Both the position numbers and the translations under genes were made by a program. Shown here piece by piece: positions 1,401 to 29,628 of a stretch of DNA of 64,000 bases. The first letter of the stretch is position 1. Every line of letters begins with the position of its first letter. Source of the stretch: Candidatus Pacearchaeota archaeon (GTDB taxonomy: Archaea > Nanobdellota > Nanobdellia > Pacearchaeales > GW2011-AR1). The notes below the pieces were generated by a model that did not search any database, was not told where the DNA came from, and saw only the letters and a list, made by a program, of their open reading frames with translations. Location: assembly GCA_018221285.1 (NCBI GenBank), contig JAAOYJ010000003.1, positions 87,030 to 151,029 of the forward strand. Direction: 5' to 3'.

Positions 1401-4400
1401 TCATATAAAATCCCCCAACCCCGTTTGCTTCTCCAACTCTCTCCCAAAAATACTCTCGATATATCTTTTTACTAACTCTAGGTTCTGTTGCATGTAAGGA
1501 GAAAGATTATACTTCTTTGCCAATTCAATAGCAGGCTCGAGGTATTTCTTAATTCCGCCCTCATGTATTGTAAAAATTATCTTTCCATTACATCTAACAC
1601 ATGTCCCTTTCAAAGGTGGTCTCCTCATTATCTCATTACACGCAACACACCTAAAGCCTTGCATTGAAAACTGCCTCAAATTACCTCTCATATCTCTAAT
1701 GAAGTGTCTTTCAATAATCAACCTCGCAGTATCAGCAGTGTCAGCAGACCTCAGCCTCTCAACAAGTTCCATCTGGTGCTTAACCTTCTCAGCCATTGTC
1801 GGAAAAATCTTATACGACGAACAAACAACTCCATCATTAAAATTCGATGTAGCATGTGTAAACCCAACCCCAACAAACGGATCCTTCCCTTCTTTCAAAA
1901 TATCCTTACATATCTTAATCCCCTCCACCTTCGAAGAATGCTCTCTTTTCTCTGCTCTCTCATAAAGATTCAAAGGGTAATGGCCTTCTGGAACATATTC
2001 AAAATCAAGAATCTGGTCATCAACCTCTCCTGCATCAATCTTTGCATTCAAAACCAACGGAGCATCCTGTGTTCCCCCTCGATGACTCGGCAAAAACTTC
2101 CTTGAGAAATTCAACAATACATCTCCCAAAAGCATTATCGCAGCCTCGTCACCATCACATTGTGCACTAACAATCGAATTCCCAACAACCAGGTGATTTT
2201 CGGTATCAACATTTAAACAATAACTTTCCTTCTTTCCAATATCTTTAATAAAAACAATTGGATCATAGACAAAATTCTTATCATAATCAATTCTCATTCC
2301 TCTAAAACTTTTCTTAACAAGGTAATCAAAAATCTTTTTCTTTCTTAAGGATAAAAAACTTATCCCTTTAAAATTGTCGACAAAATCAGGACCAATAACT
2401 AATTTAGTTATTCTAAACTTTGAGATATCTCTTTTTTTCTTGATATAAAATTCTCTTAATTTCGGACCAGGTTGTTTTTCATATTCATATCTTTTAGCAA
2501 AAATTCCAAATCTCGCCAAACAAAATTCCAAATCATACAATAAACCCTCACTAACACTATCACAAGTTACCCTCCTATCTGATTTACTTACAGAACCATC
2601 TCCTTCAAAATAACCTCTTAAAACTGCAGATAATTTATTCAAAGGCAAATCTAAAAACATGCCAGGAATTCTTTTATCCTTTGCTTTACTCCCACATTCC
2701 AAAATTTTTGTGAAAAACAAATATAAAACCTTTGAAGAAAAAGTAACCCTATCTTTTTTATTTTCACTTGGTTTTAATCCAAAATGTTTTTTTATTATCT
2801 TAGCTATAAACTTCCTTAACAACTGATCTTCTGAAGAAATATAAACTTGATTCAAACCTTTTTTTCCGCCAACACTTCTTGCATATCCTTCGGCGATATA
2901 TAATCCAATAACTTCTAAAAGCTCTTTTTCTAATTTAACAATTATTGGAACTTCCACAGTATCTCTCTTAGCCACAAGTTTACCTTTTCTAAAAACCTCT
3001 TTCCTTAATCTTTCGTTCAAATCCAAGACAAAACAAAGCGGATAACTATCTCTTAATTTATAATTCATAAATTGTTTTTTGGTAATCTTCAACTTATCAA
3101 GAATCATTTTATTTTCCCTATCACTTAATTTTAAAAGAATCTTACCAATCCCCCTTATCATTAATTTTTCATGCCTCAACAATTCAGCTAAATTAATATT
3201 CTTTAAGTCTCTCGATTTAATCTTAATTCTCCACGGTAAAGGTAATTTATCTCCTATCTTGAGTGAAGATGTACGTTTAATTTTTCCATCAACTAAAAAC
3301 TTATGATTTTCTGTAACAATTATCTTTTTACCTAAAGCCGTCTTAATCTCAAACATAGAATTTTTTGAATGTTTAGTAAAATTATTTATTTTAATATTTT
3401 TTAACTCCTTATCAAACCCTATAGTTTCAAAACCTTTAACGTTCTTTTCTTTTGTTCCATAATCGTCTACTAATTTATTTGGTTTTAATCCTTCAACCAA
3501 TTCGCCAATTTTTTCAATTTTCCATAAGCCATTTCTTTTTATTGGAAGATAAGTGTTATAATCAAAACAATCTCTCCGAATCGCCGCATGCATATACGGA
3601 CTTGCATAAAGCCCCAACGCATTTGAAAAACCAATAAATCTACAAATCACCCCCGCACAATTATGGGGTGCCATACAAACACCTAACCTCCCAATCAAAT
3701 CCTCTTTCTTCTTAAGATTATAAAACGGCTTCAGTCCATAAAACCTCACAAGCAAATCATCAACAAAATTCGCAATCTTCATAAAAACATCATCTGCCTT
3801 CTCATCAGGAGTCTCTGGCGAATTCGGCAACAAAATATCATGGGGCATCAACTCCAAAATCTGCTCATCATTAACCAAATCCTTTCCATACATATCCTTA
3901 TCATAACCCAACTCCTTCAACTTCTCAATACTAACTGAAATCTCCTTCGGCTTAAAACTAACCAACGGCAACTCAGTCGCATCAAACCGAACAGTCCCGT
4001 CCTTGTTAACCTGCAACTCATGCTTCGCCCTCAAAATTCCTTTTCCAAGATTCTCAATCATCCTATCCTCTGACGAAGTTCCCCGAACACCTTTAATCAA
4101 CAAAGGAATCTCCTCTTTCTTCAACCCCAATCTCTTTACAGCGTCATCAAAATAATGCCCAACCTCAACCTGCCGACTCTGATACGGCGTCCCCTCTCTC
4201 TCCTCATCTTCCTTAACCTTATCAAAAGACTTCTCCTTTGTCTTATAAAAATAATACATTCTCTCACACTTCTGATTACAAACCTCACACTTCGGATAAA
4301 TCGTCTCCTTCTCACATTTCTTACAATGATAAAGTGGGAAAGGGCTCCTCACAAAACCAACATCACACGCAGCCTGCACACTCCTCAATCTCCCTCCTTC

Positions 4401-6287
4401 CTTTCCAACAGGAAACAAAACATTCGGGCTCCCAGTCAACTTCCGAACTTTTGCCTTCTCAGGCCTTCCCATCCGAGTCCCAATAAAATCACCTGCTTTA
4501 TCCTTAATTTCAAACTTTGATAATTCATTAACAATCTTCAACACATCATCCCCTTCAAATTTCTTGCCCCTTAATTTCACAATTTGGGGTACACCAGGCG
4601 GTGTCGATTCAATCTCATCAACATTCTTAATTCCCAAATTAACCATCAAAGCCCTACTATCTTCCCCACCCATCACAACATTCTCAATTGTAACTTCATG
4701 TTCAATTCCCAACAATTCAAGCGCCCTCTTCCCAACTTCAAACTCTTCCTGTTCTGTCTTGTTATATGGAAAAACCAATTTCCCTTCAGAGATTCTTGAA
4801 TGTTTTAACCATTCAACCAAGCCCAAAAACTGCTCTTTAGAAATCTCTGTCCAATAAAAAATAAAACTAGGGTGTAATGGAATGTTATACTTTTTTGATA
4901 GCCCAATTGCTTCATCCAAACTAACTTTATAAGAATCCCCTACTTCTCCGCCTGCCTTTTTTAATTCAAGTTCCCACCATTCCTCAACATAACCAGGTTT
5001 AAGCAAACTAGAATTCCTATTCAACACATCACTAAACGCAAACAAGATATCACCTAAATAAATTATCTCTTCAACGTTCTTGTAAATCTTCCTCGCCTCC
5101 TCTTTTGTGTGAATTTTTTTTACACTACCCGAAACTAGTTTCACAATCGGACCATCAATAGAGTCACACACCGTCGTTATAGTACCTTTAACAGGTTTTT
5201 CTGTTTTCAGTTGAGTTCCAATTGCAATAAAATCATCTGTTATCGCCATTGTCGCCGGATGAACACTTGCCGCACTAAATCCTGCAACCCTACTTCTCCC
5301 ATATCTGAATCTAAACCCTCCTGAACGCGAAGGATGTCCAAACACAGGCCTTCCTGCAACCAAATCCTGAATATAAGTTGGAGAATCATCAACAGCACCC
5401 TTCTCCCTTTTCTCATGAAGCTCAAGATATTCTGGAATCCAATCAAACCCTGTCGCTTTAATGCCATCCTTCTTCGCTTTAGTCAATAATCTAAAACCTT
5501 TTGCTGCTTTCTGAGCCAAACCTTCTGAAAAACACAAACACATCCCCCCCCGAATATAATCTGTATCAACTCTCTCAAGATTCTTATAATTCGAAACCTC
5601 CAATTTCTCTGTCTTCTCTCCAGCAATCTGAATCGGAATATGCTTCGCTAAAAAAGCCATCTCCTCTTCTGTTGGAAGATACTGCAAATTAGTAATCCTG
5701 CCATGATAATCCATATTCTCTGTAACATATCTCTTAACCTCATCTTCATTAGGATCATACTTGGCATAACCAAACAATTCTCTCAAATAATCAATCAACA
5801 TTAATGCCAAACAAGTAGCAGTTGTACCCGCGCTCCGAATAGGCCCGCTAAAATAAGCAATAAAATAATCCTTCCCTTCTCTTGTCTTACCTAATTTCAA
5901 TTCAGTATAACCTTCAATCGGAGACGCAACAACCCCGAGAGTCGTATAAGCAAAACCAATCCTTATCCCCGCATCAATCGCCTGAACCAAACTCTCAAAT
6001 TTACAAAACTTCTGCTTCGCGACTTCCTCAGCAATCACAAACACAATCGTCGGATCCATCTTCCCATATTTCCTCTCCAACTCAAGAATCCTCTTATCAA
6101 CACCACAACCAACCAACTGCGGATAAATCGTCCCTATCAGCGCCACAACCTTCTCAGCCATGGTTTTCGCTAACGGAATCTCAACCCTGTCAACAGGATC
6201 AAGCCCCTTAGCCCTTGCCTCTTCCATGGCCTTGTAGACCTTTCTAACGTCCTTTTCCAAGTTTGTGAAGTATTGTTCAGTGTTCAT
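1401..6287 (-). CDS. polC: DNA polymerase II (PolD) large subunit DP2, interrupted by an intein
   Basis: 1628 aa. Removing the intein leaves 1158 aa and restores the RRD|CDGDE catalytic motif. Internal and C-terminal Cys4 zinc modules (CKKCEKE..CEVCNQKC, CVACN..CVRCNG). ATGA overlap with the upstream gene. Confidence 0.95.
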   Translation of the reverse strand: MNTEQYFTNLEKDVRKVYKAMEEARAKGLDPVDRVEIPLAKTMAEKVVALIGTIYPQLVGCGVDKRILELERKYGKMDPTIVFVIAEEVAKQKFCKFESLVQAIDAGIRIGFAYTTLGVVASPIEGYTELKLGKTREGKDYFIAYFSGPIRSAGTTATCLALMLIDYLRELFGYAKYDPNEDEVKRYVTENMDYHGRITNLQYLPTEEEMAFLAKHIPIQIAGEKTEKLEVSNYKNLERVDTDYIRGGMCLCFSEGLAQKAAKGFRLLTKAKKDGIKATGFDWIPEYLELHEKREKGAVDDSPTYIQDLVAGRPVFGHPSRSGGFRFRYGRSRVAGFSAASVHPATMAITDDFIAIGTQLKTEKPVKGTITTVCDSIDGPIVKLVSGSVKKIHTKEEARKIYKNVEEIIYLGDILFAFSDVLNRNSSLLKPGYVEEWWELELKKAGGEVGDSYKVSLDEAIGLSKKYNIPLHPSFIFYWTEISKEQFLGLVEWLKHSRISEGKLVFPYNKTEQEEFEVGKRALELLGIEHEVTIENVVMGGEDSRALMVNLGIKNVDEIESTPPGVPQIVKLRGKKFEGDDVLKIVNELSKFEIKDKAGDFIGTRMGRPEKAKVRKLTGSPNVLFPVGKEGGRLRSVQAACDVGFVRSPFPLYHCKKCEKETIYPKCEVCNQKCERMYYFYKTKEKSFDKVKEDEEREGTPYQSRQVEVGHYFDDAVKRLGLKKEEIPLLIKGVRGTSSEDRMIENLGKGILRAKHELQVNKDGTVRFDATELPLVSFKPKEISVSIEKLKELGYDKDMYGKDLVNDEQILELMPHDILLPNSPETPDEKADDVFMKIANFVDDLLVRFYGLKPFYNLKKKEDLIGRLGVCMAPHNCAGVICRFIGFSNALGLYASPYMHAAIRRDCFDYNTYLPIKRNGLWKIEKIGELVEGLKPNKLVDDYGTKEKNVKGFETIGFDKELKNIKINNFTKHSKNSMFEIKTALGKKIIVTENHKFLVDGKIKRTSSLKIGDKLPLPWRIKIKSRDLKNINLAELLRHEKLMIRGIGKILLKLSDRENKMILDKLKITKKQFMNYKLRDSYPLCFVLDLNERLRKEVFRKGKLVAKRDTVEVPIIVKLEKELLEVIGLYIAEGYARSVGGKKGLNQVYISSEDQLLRKFIAKIIKKHFGLKPSENKKDRVTFSSKVLYLFFTKILECGSKAKDKRIPGMFLDLPLNKLSAVLRGYFEGDGSVSKSDRRVTCDSVSEGLLYDLEFCLARFGIFAKRYEYEKQPGPKLREFYIKKKRDISKFRITKLVIGPDFVDNFKGISFLSLRKKKIFDYLVKKSFRGMRIDYDKNFVYDPIVFIKDIGKKESYCLNVDTENHLVVGNSIVSAQCDGDEAAIMLLGDVLLNFSRKFLPSHRGGTQDAPLVLNAKIDAGEVDDQILDFEYVPEGHYPLNLYERAEKREHSSKVEGIKICKDILKEGKDPFVGVGFTHATSNFNDGVVCSSYKIFPTMAEKVKHQMELVERLRSADTADTARLIIERHFIRDMRGNLRQFSMQGFRCVACNEIMRRPPLKGTCVRCNGKIIFTIHEGGIKKYLEPAIELAKKYNLSPYMQQNLELVKRYIESIFGRELEKQTGLGDFI
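2160..3569 (-). mobile_element. 470-aa intein with LAGLIDADG homing-endonuclease domain inside polC
   Basis: Starts with Cys1 (CFDYNTYL) and has block B TENH. LAGLIDADG motifs LLEVIGLYIAEGYA and LSAVLRGYFEGDGSV. Ends VVGNSIVSAQ, followed by the +1 Cys of CDGDE. Boundaries checked on nucleotides: TGT at 3569..3567, CAA at 2162..2160, TGT at 2159..2157. Confidence 0.88.
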
Positions 6288-13838: not shown

Positions 13839-14474
13839 ATGGCAAAGATAAAAGCAATAATCTTCGATGTCTGTGGTGTTTTGGCTTTAGATAAACGCAA
13901 GGATGCTGCAAAATATAATCGTAGAGTGTTAGGAGTCCATGAGTATGTCGCAAAAAAATTAAAAATATCTTTAGACCAATATTTTGATTCAATTGATACA
14001 GATTATACAAAATCCATGGCAGGAGAGATCTCTGAAGAGAAAGTGGTTAAAGAAATTGCAGCTAATTTTAAAATAACTCCAAAAAAATTAAAGAAATTAT
14101 ATCTCGGCGCATACGAAAGCCATTTTAAACAAAATGAGCAATTGTTTAAAGAATTGTCTAAATTAGAAAAGCAAGGATATATTTTAGCAGTTTTATCAGA
14201 CCAGTGGCATCTTTCCGAGGATCCTTTAATGCCTAAGAAACTTTACAAAAGGTTTGGTGTTTTGATTGTGTCTTGTGATGTTGGTTTAAGAAAACCAGAC
14301 CCAAAAATTTACAAACTTGTATTAAAAAAACTCAAACTAAAACCATCTCAAACTGTTTTTGTAGATAACCAAGAATGGAACCTCAAACCTGCTAGAAAGT
14401 TAGGTATGAAAGCAATTCAATTCAAAAACAATAAGCAACTATTTCAAGATCTAAAAGAATTAGGAATTGAATAA
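13839..14474 (+). CDS. HAD-superfamily hydrolase
   Basis: Motif I IIFDVCGVL (Cys where the second Asp usually sits), motif II LSDQ, motif III KPDPKIY, motif IV FVDN. The ORF-track start 13809 is GTG; ATG at 13839 is preceded by AAGAGG. Confidence 0.72.
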   Translation: MAKIKAIIFDVCGVLALDKRKDAAKYNRRVLGVHEYVAKKLKISLDQYFDSIDTDYTKSMAGEISEEKVVKEIAANFKITPKKLKKLYLGAYESHFKQNEQLFKELSKLEKQGYILAVLSDQWHLSEDPLMPKKLYKRFGVLIVSCDVGLRKPDPKIYKLVLKKLKLKPSQTVFVDNQEWNLKPARKLGMKAIQFKNNKQLFQDLKELGIE

Positions 14475-14475
14475 A

Positions 14476-15246
14476 ATGTCAAATAAACCGCTTGCAGCAA
14501 TTTACATAAGAGTTTCAACAGAAGAGCAGGCAAGACAAGGAATCTCTTTGTCAGCACAAGAGGAAGCCCTAAAAAACTATGCTTCTGCGTTGGGTTATGA
14601 TATATTTAAGATTTACAAAGATGAAGGAAAGTCTGGGAAGGATATTAAAGGAAGGCCAGAAATGCGGCAACTCCTTGAAGATGCCCAATCCCAGAAATTT
14701 CAAGCAATTTTCATTTACAAGCTTGATAGATTTTCCCGTTCATTAAAAGATTTAATAGAAACAATCGAAAAACTCAAAGAATTGGGAATAGATTTTGTTT
14801 CCCTTCAAGATAAAATCGAAACCACGTCGGCTAGTGGAAAGTTAATGTTCCACATCATCTCAGCATTTGCAGAATTTGAAAGAAACGTCACAGGAGAAAG
14901 AACTAAATTCGCAATGGATAAACAAGCAAGAGACGGAAATCACATCACAAGAGCCCCTTGGGGATATAAAATAGAAAATAAAAAACTCGTAGCCACAGAA
15001 CATTCTTATCAGGTCCAAGAGCTTTTTCAAGAATTTCTAAATAAAAATATCAGTCTCACTAAATTGGCAAAGAAGTACGGCTTTTCTGTTAATGGTCTAA
15101 AGAAAATTCTAACAAACCAAACTTATCTAGGAAAAGTTAAATTTGATAAACAAACCCATCAAGGATCGCATCAAACATTAATCTCATCGACGTTGTTTAA
15201 CCATGTCCAAAACAAGTTAGAAAAATTAGGTATAAAGAAATCTTAG
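14476..15246 (+). CDS. serine recombinase (resolvase/invertase family)
   Basis: N-terminal catalytic motif AAIYIRVSTEEQ, then DRFSRS, GERTK, and a C-terminal DNA-binding region. The ORF-track start 14467 is TTG; ATG at 14476 lies just after the HAD stop codon. Confidence 0.85.
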   Translation: MSNKPLAAIYIRVSTEEQARQGISLSAQEEALKNYASALGYDIFKIYKDEGKSGKDIKGRPEMRQLLEDAQSQKFQAIFIYKLDRFSRSLKDLIETIEKLKELGIDFVSLQDKIETTSASGKLMFHIISAFAEFERNVTGERTKFAMDKQARDGNHITRAPWGYKIENKKLVATEHSYQVQELFQEFLNKNISLTKLAKKYGFSVNGLKKILTNQTYLGKVKFDKQTHQGSHQTLISSTLFNHVQNKLEKLGIKKS

Positions 15247-23003: not shown

Positions 23004-24077
23004 TTAAATCCTTCTGGCCCCACCATTTTCCATTTTCATTTTTTCTTGCTTTAAATCATGCTGAATCATTCTAGTAACTAATTCTTCAAATGTTACTTTT
23101 GGTTCCCAACCTAATTTTTCTTTTGCCTTACTCGAGTCCCCTAAAAGAAGGTCTACCTCTGTCGGTCTAAAATACCTTTTATCTATCTCTATAATTATTT
23201 TCCCAGTATTTTGATCTATTCCTTTTTCTTCTAACCCTTCCCCTTCCCATCTAATATCAAATCCAAGCTGTTTAGCAGAAACTTCAACAAATTTTCTTAC
23301 ACTATGTGTTTCTCCAGTAGCAATCACGTAATCGTCAGGTTTATCTTGCTGCAACATTAGCCACATTGATTTAACATAATCTTCTGCATGGCCCCAATCC
23401 CTTTTAGCTTCAAGATTACCTAATCGTAATTTTTGATCAATACCTAATTTTATCCTTACTAATCCACGAGTTATTTTTCTAGTTACAAATGTTTCCCCCC
23501 TTCTCTCAGATTCATGATTAAATAAAATCCCATTACAAGCAAAAATCCCATAAGCCTCTCTGTAATTTATAGTTACCCAATAAGCATAAAGTTTTGCAGC
23601 TGCGTAAGGGGAACGAGGATAAAAAGGAGTTTTCTCTGTTTGAGGAGTTTCTTGCACTTTCCCATAAAGTTCACTTGTAGAAGCCTGATAAAACTTTGTT
23701 TTCTTTTCCAACTTAAGAATCCTAATAGCCTCTAATAATCTCAAAGTTCCGAGAGCATCTGATTGCGCAGTATATTCTGGAGTTTCAAATGAAACTTGAA
23801 CATGGCTTTGGGCGCCAAGATTATAAATTTCATCAGGTTGAACCTCTTGAATTATTCTAATGAGATTTGTGGCATCTGTTAAATCCCCATAATGTAATAC
23901 AAAATTTCTATCATTTATGTAAGGGTCTTGATAAATACGATCTACCCTCTTTGTATTAAATGAGCTACTCCTCCTTTTTATCCCATGAACTTTATATCCT
24001 TTCTTAAGTAAGAATTCCGCGAGATAACTTCCATCCTGCCCAGTTATCCCTGTGATTAACGCTGTTTTGTTTTCCAT
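23004..24077 (-). CDS. gmd: GDP-mannose 4,6-dehydratase (copy 1)
   Basis: [58 protein letters not shown]. Confidence 0.95.
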
Positions 24078-24138
24078 GAGTTCTTTATAATTTTTTGATT
24101 AATAAATATTTGTAAGATAAAGAATATAAAACTAAAGA

Positions 24139-24250
24139 AAGACAGCTTGATGATTTTGCACCTTTTCGGGCACTACCGCCATCAACATAGGAAGCTTAAC
24201 TTCTGTGTTCGGAAAGGGAACAGGTGTTTCCAACCCATTATGACTGTCTT
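24139..24250 (-). rRNA. 5S ribosomal RNA
   Basis: Minus-strand read contains ACACCTGTTCCCTTTCCGAACACAGAAGTTAAGC (5S loop B/helix III-IV consensus). Terminal helix AAGACAG/CTGTCTT. Ends are approximate (+/-3 nt). Confidence 0.8.
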
Positions 24251-24272
24251 CATAATTCAATCACCATTTCAT

Positions 24273-24280: not shown

Positions 24281-24357
24281 CCTTTTGATTGAATTATGAA
24301 ATGAGAAATCTTGATTTTGATTTTCAAAATTAGAGGATATTTTATGTTTATAAAACC

Positions 24358-24365
24358 TTTTATAT
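24358..24365 (+). promoter_or_regulatory. TATA box (TTTTATAT) for tRNA-Arg
   Basis: Centred about 27 nt upstream of the tRNA 5' end. Confidence 0.35.
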
Positions 24366-24387
24366 TGGAAATTCCCAATAACACTAT

Positions 24388-24504
24388 GCCCTCGTAGCTC
24401 AGTTGGATAGAGCGCTTCCCTCCTACGGAAAACTTTGTTTTACGTTTAAGGAACTTGTTTCCGAAGAAAGGAAGAAGTCGCAGGTTCGAATCCTGTCGAG
24501 GGCG
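24388..24504 (+). tRNA. tRNA-Arg (anticodon CCT) with a ~43-nt intron after position 37 (about 24426-24468)
   Basis: Manual fold: acceptor GCCCTCG/CGAGGGC, D arm GCTC-AGTTGGATA-GAGC, anticodon stem CTTCC/GGAAG (the 3' strand only after intron removal), loop CTCCTA|A, T arm GCAGG-TTCGAAT-CCTGT, discriminator G. Intron ends CGGAAA / TTTCCG pair. Confidence 0.85.
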
Positions 24505-24594
24505 TATGTTCCAGGATGAGAACTGGAGGTTTCGTTCGACGACGCTTCGGCGGACGACGGAGAGCAAAGCGACCCACGAATCCTGTCGAGGGCG
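24505..24594 (+). other. GC-rich 72-nt segment plus an exact 18-nt second copy of the tRNA-Arg 3' end, followed by TTTTT
   Basis: 24577-24594 CGAATCCTGTCGAGGGCG is identical to 24487-24504. Hairpin TTCCAG-N8-CTGGAG at about 24510-24529. T5 at 24595-24599. Confidence 0.7.
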
Positions 24595-24656
24595 TTTTTC
24601 AAACTATAAATGCATAACAATAAATTTTAAAACCTCTAATATCTTCCCAAAATTAA

Positions 24657-24727
24657 GCGCGGGTAGTTCAGTGGCAGAATCTTTGGCTTCCAACCAAATG
24701 ACCTGGGTTCGAATCCCAGCTCGCGCA
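24657..24727 (+). tRNA. tRNA-Gly (anticodon TCC)
   Basis: Manual fold: acceptor GCGCGGG/CTCGCGC (one G-U), anticodon stem TTTGG/CCAAA, loop CTTCCAA, T arm CTGGG-TTCGAAT-CCCAG, discriminator A. Confidence 0.9.
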
Positions 24728-24731
24728 TTCT

Positions 24732-24773
24732 AAAGTATGCTCGTTATTGATACATGAAGCAAGAGCATACTTT
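24732..24773 (+). other. 11-bp perfect stem (AAAGTATGCTC / GAGCATACTTT) with 20-nt loop, non-coding
   Basis: Read directly. Followed by GCTGAGGAGTTGAACCCC. Confidence 0.6.
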
Positions 24774-24825
24774 GCTGAGGAGTTGAACCCCAAACAGTTT
24801 AAATGAAATATTCAAATAGGAAAGT

Positions 24826-24852
24826 GCGCGAGAAAACTTCGTTGTCTCGCGT
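24826..24852 (+). other. GC-rich hairpin (CGCGAGA / TCTCGCG, 11-nt loop), non-coding
   Basis: Read directly. Followed by GTGAGAGTTCTAACCCG, which resembles the tail after the first hairpin. Confidence 0.6.
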
Positions 24853-24919
24853 GAGAGTTCTAACCCGTCGCATCATTCTCAACAAACACTTTTAAAAGCA
24901 AATTTATTCTATTATCTTA

Positions 24920-28554: not shown

Positions 28555-29628
28555 TTAGTACTTATCAACTTTCCCGTTCAAGATTTTTATTTTTTCTTGT
28601 TCTAAATCAGATTGAACCATTCTTGTAACTAATTCATCAAATGTAACCTGGGGCCTCCACCCTAATTTTTCCCTTGCCTTGCTAGAATCTCCTAATAAAG
28701 TCTCTACTTCTGTGGGCCGAAAATAACGAGAATCTATTCCAATAATAACTTCACCCGTTTCCCTATCAACCCCTTTTTCTTCTAATCCTTCCCCTGTCCA
28801 CTCCAAGTTAAATCCTAGTTTCCTAGCAACTTCTTCAACAAACTGCCTAACACTATAATTTTTCCCTGTGGCAATCACATAATCATCTGGCTCCTCTTGC
28901 TGTAACATTAACCACATAGATCTAACATAATCTTCTGCATGCCCCCAATCTCTTTTTGCTTCAAGATTCCCTAAAAATAAAGTTTTATCAACCCCTAATT
29001 TTATTCTTGTAAGCCCCCTAGTTATTTTTCTAGTCACGAATGTTTCACCCCTTCTCTCAGACTCATGATTAAATAAAATTCCATTACAAGCAAAAATCCC
29101 ATAAGCTTCTCTATAGTTTTTAGTAATCCAATAAGCGTAAATTTTAGCTGCAGCGTAAGGAGAACGAGGGTTAAAGGGGGTTTTCTCTGTTTGAGGTGTT
29201 TCTAGCACCTCCCCATAAAGTTCACTAGTCGAAGCTTGATAAAATTTAGTTTTATTTTCTAACTTTAAAATTCTTATAGCCTCCAATATCCTTAATGTTC
29301 CGAGAGCATCTGATTGTGCAGTGTATTCAGGAGTTTCGAATGAGACTTGTACATGGCTTTGGGCCCCAAGATTATAAATCTCATCAGGCTGAACTTCTTG
29401 GATCATTCTAATGAGGTTTGTAGCATCAGTCAGATCTCCATAATGCAATATAAAATTTCTATGATTTATATAAGGCGCTTCGTAGATATGGTCAACACGC
29501 CCGGTATTAAAACTTGAAGACCTTCGTTTTATCCCATGCACTTCGTAACCTTTCTTTAACAAAAATTCCGCGAGATAACTTCCATCTTGTCCTGTAATCC
29601 CCGTTATCAGCGCTTTTTTACTTATCAT
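28555..29628 (-). CDS. gmd: GDP-mannose 4,6-dehydratase (copy 2)
   Basis: Same motifs as copy 1. Most residues are identical on by-eye alignment, and long nucleotide runs are shared. Confidence 0.95.

What the first reader, a model, noticed from the sequence alone, without database searches (positions are those of the whole stretch)
24388..24599. tRNA-Arg(CCU) with a canonical intron, then a GC-rich 72-nt insert and an exact second copy of its own 3' end before the terminator
What the sequence shows: 24388-24504 folds into a complete tRNA-Arg once a ~43-nt intron after position 37 is removed. No T-tract follows the discriminator. Instead there is a 72-nt segment much more GC-rich than its surroundings, which in an AT-rich genome usually marks structured RNA. 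It includes the hairpin TTCCAG-N8-CTGGAG. After it, CGAATCCTGTCGAGGGCG (24577-24594) repeats 24487-24504 exactly (3' part of the T-loop, T-stem 3' strand, acceptor 3' strand, discriminator). Only after this second copy does TTTTT appear. The distal copy has no T-stem or acceptor partner of its own, so it can only pair with the same 5' strands. Three readings fit: (a) the mature tRNA uses the distal copy, making about 24487-24576 a 90-nt non-canonical T-loop intron of the kind known in some archaea; (b) the duplication is an att-type scar left by an element that integrated into the tRNA 3' end; (c) the insert is a tRNA-linked small RNA released by tRNA processing enzymes. I could not build a convincing bulge-helix-bulge motif by hand.
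Basis: partly seen in the sequence, partly recalled or inferred. Interest (0 to 1): 0.7.

Follow-up and report, generated by a model that had tools for sequence, protein, structure and literature searches.

The report
Tiny mobile insert behind tRNA gene
The GC-rich 72 bases and the second copy of the tRNA's tail are a miniature mobile insertion that, in a group of tiny DPANN archaea (Pacearchaeota), lands at the ends of different tRNA genes and duplicates the piece it lands in; the tRNA-Arg gene itself is complete and does not need it.

Summary
There is a complete tRNA-Arg(CCU) with a 43-nt anticodon-loop intron, a 72-nt segment at 57% GC in a 33% GC genome, an exact 19-nt second copy of the tRNA 3' end, and then TTTTT.

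The interpretation changes. The window comes from a Pacearchaeota (DPANN) genome. The orthologous tRNA-Arg of a close relative has the same intron but runs straight into TTTT, with no insert.

The same element (invariant GTTTCGTTCG…GCGGACGACGG…CCA) follows tRNA-Gly in that relative and tRNA-Gln in a distant genome. Each time it is followed by a copy of that tRNA's own 3' end starting at T-loop C56. Its hairpin core also sits as a 48-nt in-frame insertion in an endonuclease Q gene.

Related mini-elements sit between tRNA genes and duplicated 3' or 5' pieces, and filled and empty sites occur among relatives.

I found no bulge-helix-bulge motif, no Rfam family, no excess folding stability and no covariation.

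Best reading: a miniature, non-autonomous, tRNA-loop-targeting mobile insertion with target duplication, carried here as a 3' trailer. The T-loop-intron and small-RNA readings are unsupported. The enzyme and mechanism are unknown.

The parts
24348..24365 (+). Archaeal promoter-like A/T box (TTATAAAACCTTTTATAT) upstream of tRNA-Arg. A similar box (24625-24642) precedes tRNA-Gly.
   Evidence: Direct-repeat family D2. The same TTTATAAAAC(T/C)TTTTATAT box precedes the tRNA cluster in L025, L027 and L030. Promoter function is inferred.
24388..24504 (+). tRNA-Arg(CCU), complete. Exon 1 is 24388-24425, the intron 24426-24468 (43 nt, position 37/38) and exon 2 24469-24504.
   Evidence: Rfam RF00005 at 57.4 bits. 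BHB control a5/b3/c5. It is 81.7% identical to the L027 ortholog, including a homologous intron. Intron-less orthologs read CCT.
24487..24505 (+). Proximal copy of the 19-nt direct repeat: T-loop C56 through discriminator G73, plus one T.
   Evidence: family D1, 100% identity; 0 expected by chance.
24506..24576 (+). The inserted 'type A' mini-element.
   Evidence: It is homologous to the elements behind tRNA-Gly in L027/L028/L029 (69% identity) and behind tRNA-Gln in L156 and its sister contigs (66%). It is absent behind the orthologous tRNA-Arg of L027.
24509..24528 (+). Hairpin 1, containing the conserved box GGATGAGAAC (24514-24523), which resembles an antisense T-loop (GGATTCGAAC).
   Evidence: Fold. 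The box is found in L025/L026/L027/L028/L029 elements. All 3' units start with an antisense T-arm-like segment.
24530..24559 (+). Core hairpin 'hp2' (TTTCGTTCG-ACGACGCTTCGG-CGGACGACG), the most conserved part of the element.
   Evidence: A 30-nt exact match to L008/L015/L016/L022, where it lies inside an endonuclease Q gene. The arms are invariant in alignment A3. 29 of these 30 nt match the tRNA-Gln copy of a genome whose MinD is only 63% identical to this genome's.
24560..24576 (+). Tail GAGAGCAAAGCGACCCA. It ends in CCA directly before the distal tRNA piece, as in all three type A copies.
24577..24595 (+). Distal copy of the 19-nt repeat (duplicated tRNA-Arg 3' end), lying next to the native downstream flank.
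   Evidence: The flank after it (…CATAACAATAAATTTTAAAACC) matches the flank that directly follows the tRNA-Arg of L027.
24595..24599 (+). TTTTT, the likely archaeal terminator of the tRNA-Arg transcript.
   Evidence: Sequence. Terminator function is inferred from the known oligo-T termination of archaeal RNA polymerase.
24791..24872 (+). A second, different mini-element ('type D', 24791-24854) followed by an orphan tRNA 3' piece GAGTTCTAACCCGTCGCA (24855-24872), downstream of tRNA-Gly. It shows the same phenomenon at the neighbouring gene.
   Evidence: It aligns with the element between tRNA-Leu(CAA) and a tRNA-Leu 3' piece in L028.

Best explanation
The tRNA-Arg(CCU) gene is intact and matures from its own (proximal) 3' end.

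The roughly 90-nt unit behind it consists of the 71-72-nt GC-rich element plus a 19-nt copy of the tRNA's T-loop-to-discriminator segment. I read it as one insertion event by a miniature, non-coding mobile element of a family found in a Pacearchaeota clade.

Members of this family sit between an intact tRNA gene and a duplicated terminal piece of that gene:
- at 3' ends, the piece runs from T-loop C56/G57 to the end of the gene;
- at 5' ends, it runs from position 1 to the D-loop.

The duplicated piece is derived from the target. The conserved part, and probably the part recognised, is the GC-rich hairpin core (hp2).

Most likely mechanism (inferred, not shown): a factor supplied in trans cuts the T-arm palindrome and the gene end in a staggered way. 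Fill-in synthesis then duplicates about 19 bp, so the essential gene is rebuilt.

In this genome the native oligo-T now lies behind the distal copy. The element is therefore probably transcribed as a 3' trailer and removed by RNase Z (inferred). It has no demonstrated RNA function.
For: Shown directly:
- The same element appears at three different tRNAs (Arg, Gly, Gln), each followed by the host tRNA's own 18-19(21)-nt 3' end starting at C56.
- The orthologous tRNA-Arg in L027 (81.7% identical, same intron) runs directly into TTTT, with no element.
- Filled and empty sites exist for tRNA-Gly: L025/L026 are filled, L034/L155 are empty.
- The tRNA-Gln copy is present in 8 independent assemblies, so it is not an assembly artefact.
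- 29 of the 30 nt of the hp2 core match between genomes whose MinD proteins are 63% identical.
- hp2 also occurs as a 48-nt in-frame insertion in an endonuclease Q gene. It is flanked by a 7-nt direct repeat and is absent from homologs that are 86% and 84% identical.
- Another body (type B) occurs in both orientations, in a T-arm context and in a D-arm context.
- Elements coincide with rearrangements and orphan tRNA pieces.
- The native flank follows the distal copy.

Negative evidence against RNA-level roles.
Against: - No transposase or integrase has been tied to the element, and no autonomous relative was found.
- There are no clear terminal inverted repeats.
- Duplication lengths are not uniform: 19/19/19/21 nt for T-loop-joined units, 15 and 52 nt for type B, 7 nt in endonuclease Q. 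That fits a single fixed-stagger transposase poorly.
- Only one copy lies in the 64-kb window.
- Only three independent type A copies were seen.
- A staggered cut spanning exactly the T-loop to the gene end cannot be told apart from two site-specific boundaries.
- Nothing was found in viral contigs.
- Transcription and processing are inferred, not observed.
Confidence: 0.62

Rival explanations
1. Site-specific (att-type) recombination. A small circle or a larger integrative element carrying a tRNA-like attP recombined in the T-loop, as SSV- or pNOB8-type integrases do, leaving attL inside the tRNA and attR as the distal copy. The 72 nt would then be the element itself or what remains of it.
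For: - Direct repeats running from a tRNA loop to the gene end are the classic signature of integrase att sites (PMC3293823).
- The junctions always fall in the T-loop or D-loop.
- Every 3' unit begins with a T-arm-like inverted segment that could be a second core-type site.
- tRNA-Leu genes are rearranged in L028/L029.
- A conserved 259-aa serine recombinase lies in the window and, syntenically, in L027.
Against: - The distal piece is always the host's own sequence, although the element is the same at Arg, Gly and Gln. Crossover in the shared CGAATCC would give a chimeric, dead tRNA at a new host.
- There is no integrase inside the insert.
- All inserts are 58-90 nt and colinear, not random deletion remnants.
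- No free element was found in viral contigs.
Confidence: 0.15
2. A replication or repair by-product. Fork stalling or a break at a highly transcribed tRNA gene, fold-back at the T-arm palindrome and template switching copied a pre-existing element as filler. Synthesis then re-annealed at the T-loop and duplicated 56-73. No dedicated enzyme is needed.
For: - The architecture is sense tRNA, short spacer, antisense T-arm-like segment, filler, then sense 56-73.
- Duplication lengths vary: 7, 15, 19, 21 and 52 nt.
- The endonuclease Q insertion is flanked by a short microhomology.
Against: - The same filler is reused at independent sites and in distantly related genomes, with a near-identical core. 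That calls for a propagating element or a common donor.
- The junction falls at C56/G57 in five different units.
Confidence: 0.12
3. RNA-level function. Either the distal copy is the 3' exon actually used, with about 24487-24576 removed as a non-canonical T-loop intron, or the trailer is released as a functional small RNA.
For: - In this genome there is no T-tract before the distal copy, so the element should be co-transcribed.
- The box can pair with the start of the distal copy in all three type A units: CAGGAU/AUCCUG, UGGGAU/AUCCCA and GGUUCG/CGAAUC.
- The tail ends in CCA in all three.
- Some DPANN splicing endonucleases accept relaxed substrates (PMC3239211, listed).
Against: - No BHB at any in-register junction or around the element bodies.
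- The proximal copy makes splicing unnecessary.
- The element is absent from the ortholog.
- A T5 run precedes the element in L027, and no T5 follows the distal copy in L156.
- No Rfam family, z-scores of -0.4 to -0.9 and no compensatory pairs.
Confidence: 0.07

Closest known systems
Casposon insertion at tRNA 3' ends (Aciduliprofundum boonei casposase; PMC5137440)
   Same: Insertion is targeted to the 3' end of a tRNA gene. The segment encoding the TΨC arm is part of the recognised target. A direct target duplication is made by staggered nicks and fill-in, and the tRNA gene stays intact.
   Different: Casposons are kilobases long, carry cas1 and polB, and have terminal inverted repeats. Their duplication is 15 bp and overlaps the tRNA by only 5 bp. 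Here the unit is about 70 nt and non-coding, has no clear TIRs, and the 19-nt duplication lies inside the tRNA (56-73 plus 1). No Cas1 was seen.
Integrase-mediated integration into archaeal tRNA genes (SSV-type and pNOB8-type; tRNA fragments as att repeats; PMC3293823, PMC9897764)
   Same: Direct repeats of the 3' or 5' part of a tRNA gene flank inserted DNA. The reconstituted gene stays functional. tRNA fragments scatter and mediate rearrangements.
   Different: Known elements are kilobases long and encode the integrase, and their repeats are typically about 40-60 bp copied from the element's attP. Here the insert is 58-90 nt with no gene, and the repeat follows the host tRNA when the element changes host.
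MITEs and small palindromic repeats that also insert in frame into genes (for example Rickettsia palindromic elements and yeast mitochondrial GC clusters; from my own knowledge, not tested here)
   Same: Very small, GC-rich hairpin elements in an AT-rich genome. They are non-coding, present or absent among relatives, and able to sit in frame inside a protein gene (the endonuclease Q case).
   Different: Those families are not tied to tRNA loops and do not duplicate 15-19 nt of a tRNA end. Copy number here appears low.
Non-canonical BHB introns and 'transposing' tRNA introns of Thermoproteales and ARMAN (PMC4090602, PMC3239211; listed)
   Same: Short inserted sequences at D-loop or T-loop positions of archaeal tRNAs that are related to each other across different tRNAs.
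   Different: Those interrupt the only copy of the gene and are bounded by a BHB motif. Here the interrupted copy is a partial duplicate beside an intact gene, and no BHB can be drawn.

Membership tests
Archaeal BHB intron at a non-canonical (T-loop) position | A bulge-helix-bulge (hBHBh' or relaxed) motif spanning both splice sites | tested here: not met
   The best in-register (offset 90) candidates score a2/b4/c2 and rest on the palindrome TCGA. The genuine anticodon intron scores a5/b3/c5. No BHB is found around the element bodies either.
Archaeal BHB intron at a non-canonical (T-loop) position | Removal is required to produce a functional tRNA | tested here: not met
   The proximal copy completes a 57.4-bit tRNA without it.
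Archaeal BHB intron at a non-canonical (T-loop) position | Spliced junction and excised (circular) intron observed in RNA | not testable with these tools
   No RNA data are available.
Canonical archaeal tRNA intron (the 24426-24468 segment) | Position 37/38 with a BHB motif; homologous intron in the ortholog | tested here: met
   BHB with one C.A mismatch in the central helix (control). L027 has a homologous intron at the same position.
Integrated element with integrase (SSV- or pNOB8-type att duplication) | Direct repeat made of the tRNA 3' or 5' part flanking the insert | tested here: met
   19-nt exact repeat of positions 56-73 plus 1.
Integrated element with integrase (SSV- or pNOB8-type att duplication) | Integrase gene (whole or partitioned) and element genes between the repeats | tested here: not met
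   Only 71-72 nt lie between the repeats, with no credible ORF.
Integrated element with integrase (SSV- or pNOB8-type att duplication) | The repeat sequence is carried by the element (attP) and stays constant when the element moves | tested here: not met
   The repeat is Arg-, Gly- or Gln-specific behind the same element.
Casposon | cas1 and polB inside; terminal inverted repeats | tested here: not met
   No coding capacity. The ends ATGTTCC… and …GCGACCCA are not inverted repeats.
Casposon | Target duplication of about 14-15 bp at a tRNA 3' end, with the TΨC segment in the target | tested here: inconclusive
   The duplication is 19 nt and lies inside the tRNA. Type B units have 15 nt. The comparison is with PMC5137440.
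MITE (miniature inverted-repeat transposable element) | Small, non-coding, several related copies, presence/absence polymorphism | tested here: met
   58-90 nt. Copies lie at Arg, Gly, Gln and in endonuclease Q. Filled and empty sites exist.
MITE (miniature inverted-repeat transposable element) | Terminal inverted repeats matching an autonomous IS, and a fixed-length target duplication | tested here: inconclusive
   Only a 6-9-bp inverted match between the box and the start of the distal copy, plus internal hairpins. Duplications are 7, 15, 19, 21 and 52 nt. No parent IS was found.
Box C/D sRNA or other known structured RNA | Box C RUGAUGA plus box D CUGA, or a match to a curated family | tested here: not met
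   GGAUGAG differs from box C and there is no CUGA partner. No Rfam match at E<=10. Fold z = -0.64.

The most novel reading that the evidence does not exclude
These units may be a previously undescribed class of miniature mobile elements specific to tRNA arm loops (T-loop and D-loop). A dedicated host- or element-encoded enzyme would mobilise them, rebuilding the essential gene by duplicating its end. One untested candidate is the conserved, syntenic 259-aa serine recombinase; another is a Cas1-like integrase. The elements would also drive tRNA-gene swapping and chromosome rearrangement in Pacearchaeota.

A less likely variant is that the distal copy serves as an alternative 3' exon through BHB-independent processing.
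Probability: 0.3. Interest if true: 0.7.

Novelty: new variant of a known kind. Interest (0 to 1): 0.5.

Why it matters
tRNA genes are well-known landing sites for large integrating elements, but an insertion family under 100 nt that lives only at tRNA ends and copies the end it enters has, as far as I could find, not been described.

- It would explain odd tRNA fragments and 'extra 3' ends' in DPANN genome annotations.
- It offers a visible route by which tRNA genes acquire loop insertions and fragments. This is the raw material proposed for non-canonical introns and split tRNAs.
- It points to a recombination activity that reshuffles tRNA clusters in organisms with very small genomes.
- For annotation, it shows the tRNA-Arg here is ordinary and that the distal piece should not be called a gene or an exon.

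Tried and rejected
- T-loop intron: a systematic BHB scan of all 5' sites 24470-24511 against 3' sites 24560-24599, and of the element bodies in four loci, found nothing comparable to the real intron.
- Known RNA family: Rfam at gathering thresholds and at E<=10 on 24300-24800 gave only the two tRNAs.
- Structured RNA: single-sequence folds and RNAalifold showed no excess stability and no covariation.
- Box C/D reading of GGAUGAG: rejected, because there is no box D.
- Hammerhead-like GAUGAG: rejected, because C3/U4 and GAAA are missing and Rfam finds nothing.
- Element as an antisense or degenerate tRNA: Rfam on both strands was negative.
- Virus or plasmid origin: two exact-pattern scans of viral contigs were empty. 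A looser gapped pattern gave only chance coding hits.
- Metagenome scan with the 22-mer core: 16 of 20 hits were high-GC chance matches, mostly actinobacterial sequence encoding 'DDASADD'.
- Host-specific complementarity of the box to the host T-arm: suggestive by eye for Arg and Gly, but no better than for non-host tRNAs when scored.
- Mature-tRNA-templated repair as the source of the duplication: rejected, because the L030 repeat runs 40 nt past the tRNA end.
- ARAGORN's 'tRNA-Trp' call: rejected as a mis-registered intron.

Full report
**1. The observation**

The region reads as the first-stage reader described it.

- Rfam's tRNA model matches 24388-24504 at 57.4 bits, with a 45-nt insertion in the anticodon loop.
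- I wrote out the bulge-helix-bulge (BHB) motif as follows: outer helix CTTCC/GGAAG; central helix CTCC/GAAG with one C.A mismatch; 3-nt bulges UAC and AAA; inner helix GGAAA/UUUCC.
- That BHB puts the splice sites after 24425 and after 24468. The result is a 43-nt intron at position 37/38 and anticodon CCU.
- My BHB scorer gives this site a5/b3/c5.
- Default ARAGORN misses the gene. In intron mode it calls 'tRNA-Trp(cca)' by placing the intron two bases too early. Syntenic intron-less orthologs read CCT, so Arg(CCU) is right.
- The direct repeat is exact and 19 nt long: CGAATCCTGTCGAGGGCGT at 24487-24505 and 24577-24595. No match with up to 3 mismatches appeared in 100 shuffles of the window.
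- The 72 nt between the copies are 57% GC, against 33% for the window and about 20% for the flanks.
- TTTTT follows only the distal copy.

**2. Where the window comes from**

An exact search with the 5' exon found four Pacearchaeota/Woesearchaeota genome bins. Three of them share the order tRNA-Arg(CCU), tRNA-Gly(UCC), secF with the window.

The window also holds a 5S rRNA gene (24137-24251, minus strand), secF and secD.

SecF homologs show that the window lies on a 282-kb contig and that its nearest relatives are 79-87% identical. A MinD-like protein on a contig of the same length is named Candidatus Pacearchaeota archaeon by NCBI.

I fetched the orthologous loci of those relatives: L025-L034 and L155.

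**3. The decisive comparison**

*The ortholog lacks the insert.* In L027/L028/L029 (three NCBI bins, SecF 85% identical) the orthologous tRNA-Arg has a homologous intron at the same place and is 81.7% identical overall. It is followed directly by TTTT, with no insert and no second copy.

*The same element follows other tRNAs.*
- In those same genomes the next gene, tRNA-Gly(UCC), is followed by an 83-nt element homologous to the window's insert (69% identity overall, 25 of the last 26 nt). After it comes an exact copy of tRNA-Gly's own 3' end, CGAATCCCAGCTCGCGCATTT, again starting at T-loop C56.
- A third copy came from the metagenome scan with the insert's core and from contigs carrying the neighbouring minD gene.
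- In a more distant Pacearchaeota genome, recovered in eight independent assemblies, tRNA-Gln(UUG) is followed by a 74-nt element and then CGAATCCTGGACGGGCTAT, its own 19-nt 3' end.

*What the three copies share.* Alignment A3 shows invariant blocks: GTTTCGTTCG, a variable loop, GCGGACGACGG, a variable tail ending in CCA, and then CGAATCC of the host tRNA. 29 of the 30 nt of the core hairpin match between the window and the tRNA-Gln copy. The MinD proteins of the two genomes are only 63% identical.

The element is therefore the same at each site, the duplicated piece follows the host tRNA, and the tRNA-Arg does not depend on the element.

**4. The family is wider**

- *Type B.* tRNA-Gly in L025/L026 carries a different body after a shared head (…GGGATGAGAACCC…GGGTTCG), followed by a 15-nt copy of its end. 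L034 and L155 show the empty site, …GGCTCGCGCA|TTTCTTTTT. L030 has a type B body framed by a 52-nt repeat that runs 40 nt beyond the tRNA.
- *Other 3' units.* L032 has a 58-nt insert and a 19-nt duplication behind tRNA-Leu.
- *5' units.* tRNA-Leu genes in L025/L026/L034/L027/L028/L029 have the mirror image: a copy of positions 1-14 or 1-15, an 83-87-nt insert, then the intact gene. L030 is empty.
- *Both orientations.* The bodies of the L025 and L028 5' units are the reverse complement of type B across their full length, and even the flanks resemble each other: GTTYGA…CCGGC, a T-arm against a reversed D-arm.
- *Rearrangement.* In L028/L029 a 'type D' element links tRNA-Leu(CAA) to the orphaned 3' end of another tRNA-Leu, which marks a rearrangement.
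- *In the window itself.* The same type D element sits at 24791-24854, followed by an orphan tRNA 3' piece at 24855-24872.
- *Inside a protein gene.* The core hairpin also lies inside an endonuclease Q gene as a 48-nt in-frame insertion. It adds 16 residues that are absent from homologs 86% and 84% identical, and it is flanked by a 7-nt direct repeat.

**5. RNA-level readings**

*A T-loop intron* would need a BHB.
- Scanning every 5' site from 24470 to 24511 against every 3' site from 24560 to 24599, the best in-register candidates reach only a2/b4/c2. They exist because TCGA is a palindrome inside the repeat.
- Treating the element bodies as introns within the partial copies also gave nothing consistent in four loci.

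*A structured small RNA* is not supported either.
- No Rfam hit at E<=10.
- Fold z-scores of -0.64 for the insert and -0.9, -0.4 and -0.7 for the three type A trailers.
- No compensatory pair in the consensus fold.

*Co-transcription is not a family trait.* In L027 a T5 run sits between tRNA-Gly and its element. In the tRNA-Gln genome no T5 follows the distal copy.

Two small regularities remain unexplained:
- Each type A head can pair with the first 6-9 nt of the distal copy.
- All three type A tails end in CCA.

Scored against host and non-host tRNAs, the head's complementarity is not host-specific.

**6. Mechanism**

*Shown.* The unit is an insertion, it moves between tRNA genes and between genomes, and the duplicated piece derives from the target.

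*Inferred.* I favour staggered cleavage of the T-arm palindrome and the gene end by a factor supplied in trans, followed by fill-in. This resembles the way the A. boonei casposase duplicates 15 bp at the end of tRNA-Pro and requires the TΨC segment (PMC5137440).

*Rivals.*
- Integrase-type att recombination (PMC3293823). It fits the loop junctions but not the host-specific repeats or the tiny, gene-less inserts.
- Fold-back or template-switch repair. It fits the variable duplication lengths and the inverted T-arm-like head, but not the reuse of one conserved core across genomes.

No enzyme could be linked to the element. A 259-aa serine recombinase at 14467-15246 is 90% identical and syntenic in L027. 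It is only a candidate.

**7. Verdict**

The finding is real and the tRNA is ordinary. The insert plus duplication is a miniature, mobile, tRNA-end-associated insertion: a new variant of tRNA-targeted mobile DNA rather than an exotic intron. The interest is moderate. It lies in the family as a whole, in what it implies for tRNA gene disruption and rearrangement in DPANN archaea, and in the unknown enzyme behind it.

Noticed in passing
window 24791-24872: A second mini-element ('type D', with GC hairpin GTGCGCGAGAA…TTCTCGCG) followed by an orphan tRNA 3' piece GAGTTCTAACCCGTCGCA that matches no tRNA in the window. The same element links tRNA-Leu(CAA) to a tRNA-Leu 3' fragment in L028/L029.
   Followed up: partly
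L022 30-1322 (minus strand); also L008, L015, L016: An endonuclease Q gene carries a 48-nt GC-rich in-frame insertion (MQGTKSPTSSAEASSN) containing the element's core hairpin. It is flanked by AAGAAAT direct repeats and is absent from homologs 86% and 84% identical.
   Followed up: yes
window 14467-15246 (+): A 259-aa serine recombinase (Resolvase plus Recombinase domains) next to the S9/L13 ribosomal protein genes and about 1.3 kb from tRNA-Leu(CAA). It is 90% identical and in the same position in L027 (653-1420). It is conserved rather than obviously part of a mobile element.
   Followed up: partly
L025 9756-9851 versus L026 9779-9852: Two very close relatives with near-identical flanks carry clearly different tRNA-Gly(UCC) bodies. 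One has a 25-nt intron and a different D-arm and anticodon stem. This suggests replacement of the gene body by recombination.
   Followed up: no
L028/L029 4577-4975 versus L027 3386-3469 and 9403-9705: A rearrangement places tRNA-Leu(CAA), with a 5' duplicated unit, upstream of the orphaned 3' end of the other tRNA-Leu and of tRNA-Arg. The breakpoint lies at T-loop position 56/57.
   Followed up: partly
L030 9790-9952: A 52-nt exact direct repeat (the last 12 nt of tRNA-Gly plus 40 nt of trailer, including the GGATGAGAAC box) frames a type B body. It does not fit a short fixed target duplication.
   Followed up: no
window 1401-6287 (-): The DNA polymerase D large subunit (DP2) contains an intein with a LAGLIDADG homing-endonuclease domain.
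   Followed up: no
window 24387-24505: ARAGORN in intron mode labels the gene tRNA-Trp(cca) by placing the intron inside the anticodon. Default ARAGORN does not report the gene at all. This is an annotation trap for this clade.
   Followed up: yes
window 24137-24251 (-): A stand-alone 5S rRNA gene lies immediately upstream of, and divergent from, the tRNA cluster. The same arrangement occurs in L025, L027, L030 and L032.
   Followed up: no
window 23004-24077 and 28555-29628 (both -): Two paralogous GDP-mannose 4,6-dehydratase genes flank the tRNA/secFD block at the edge of a large glycosyltransferase and polysaccharide-synthesis region (29.6-40 kb).
   Followed up: no
L008 start; L158 and L163 ends: Contigs from several assemblies break inside the tRNA-Gln element or the duplicated piece, as expected if these short sequences are repeated in that genome.
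   Followed up: no
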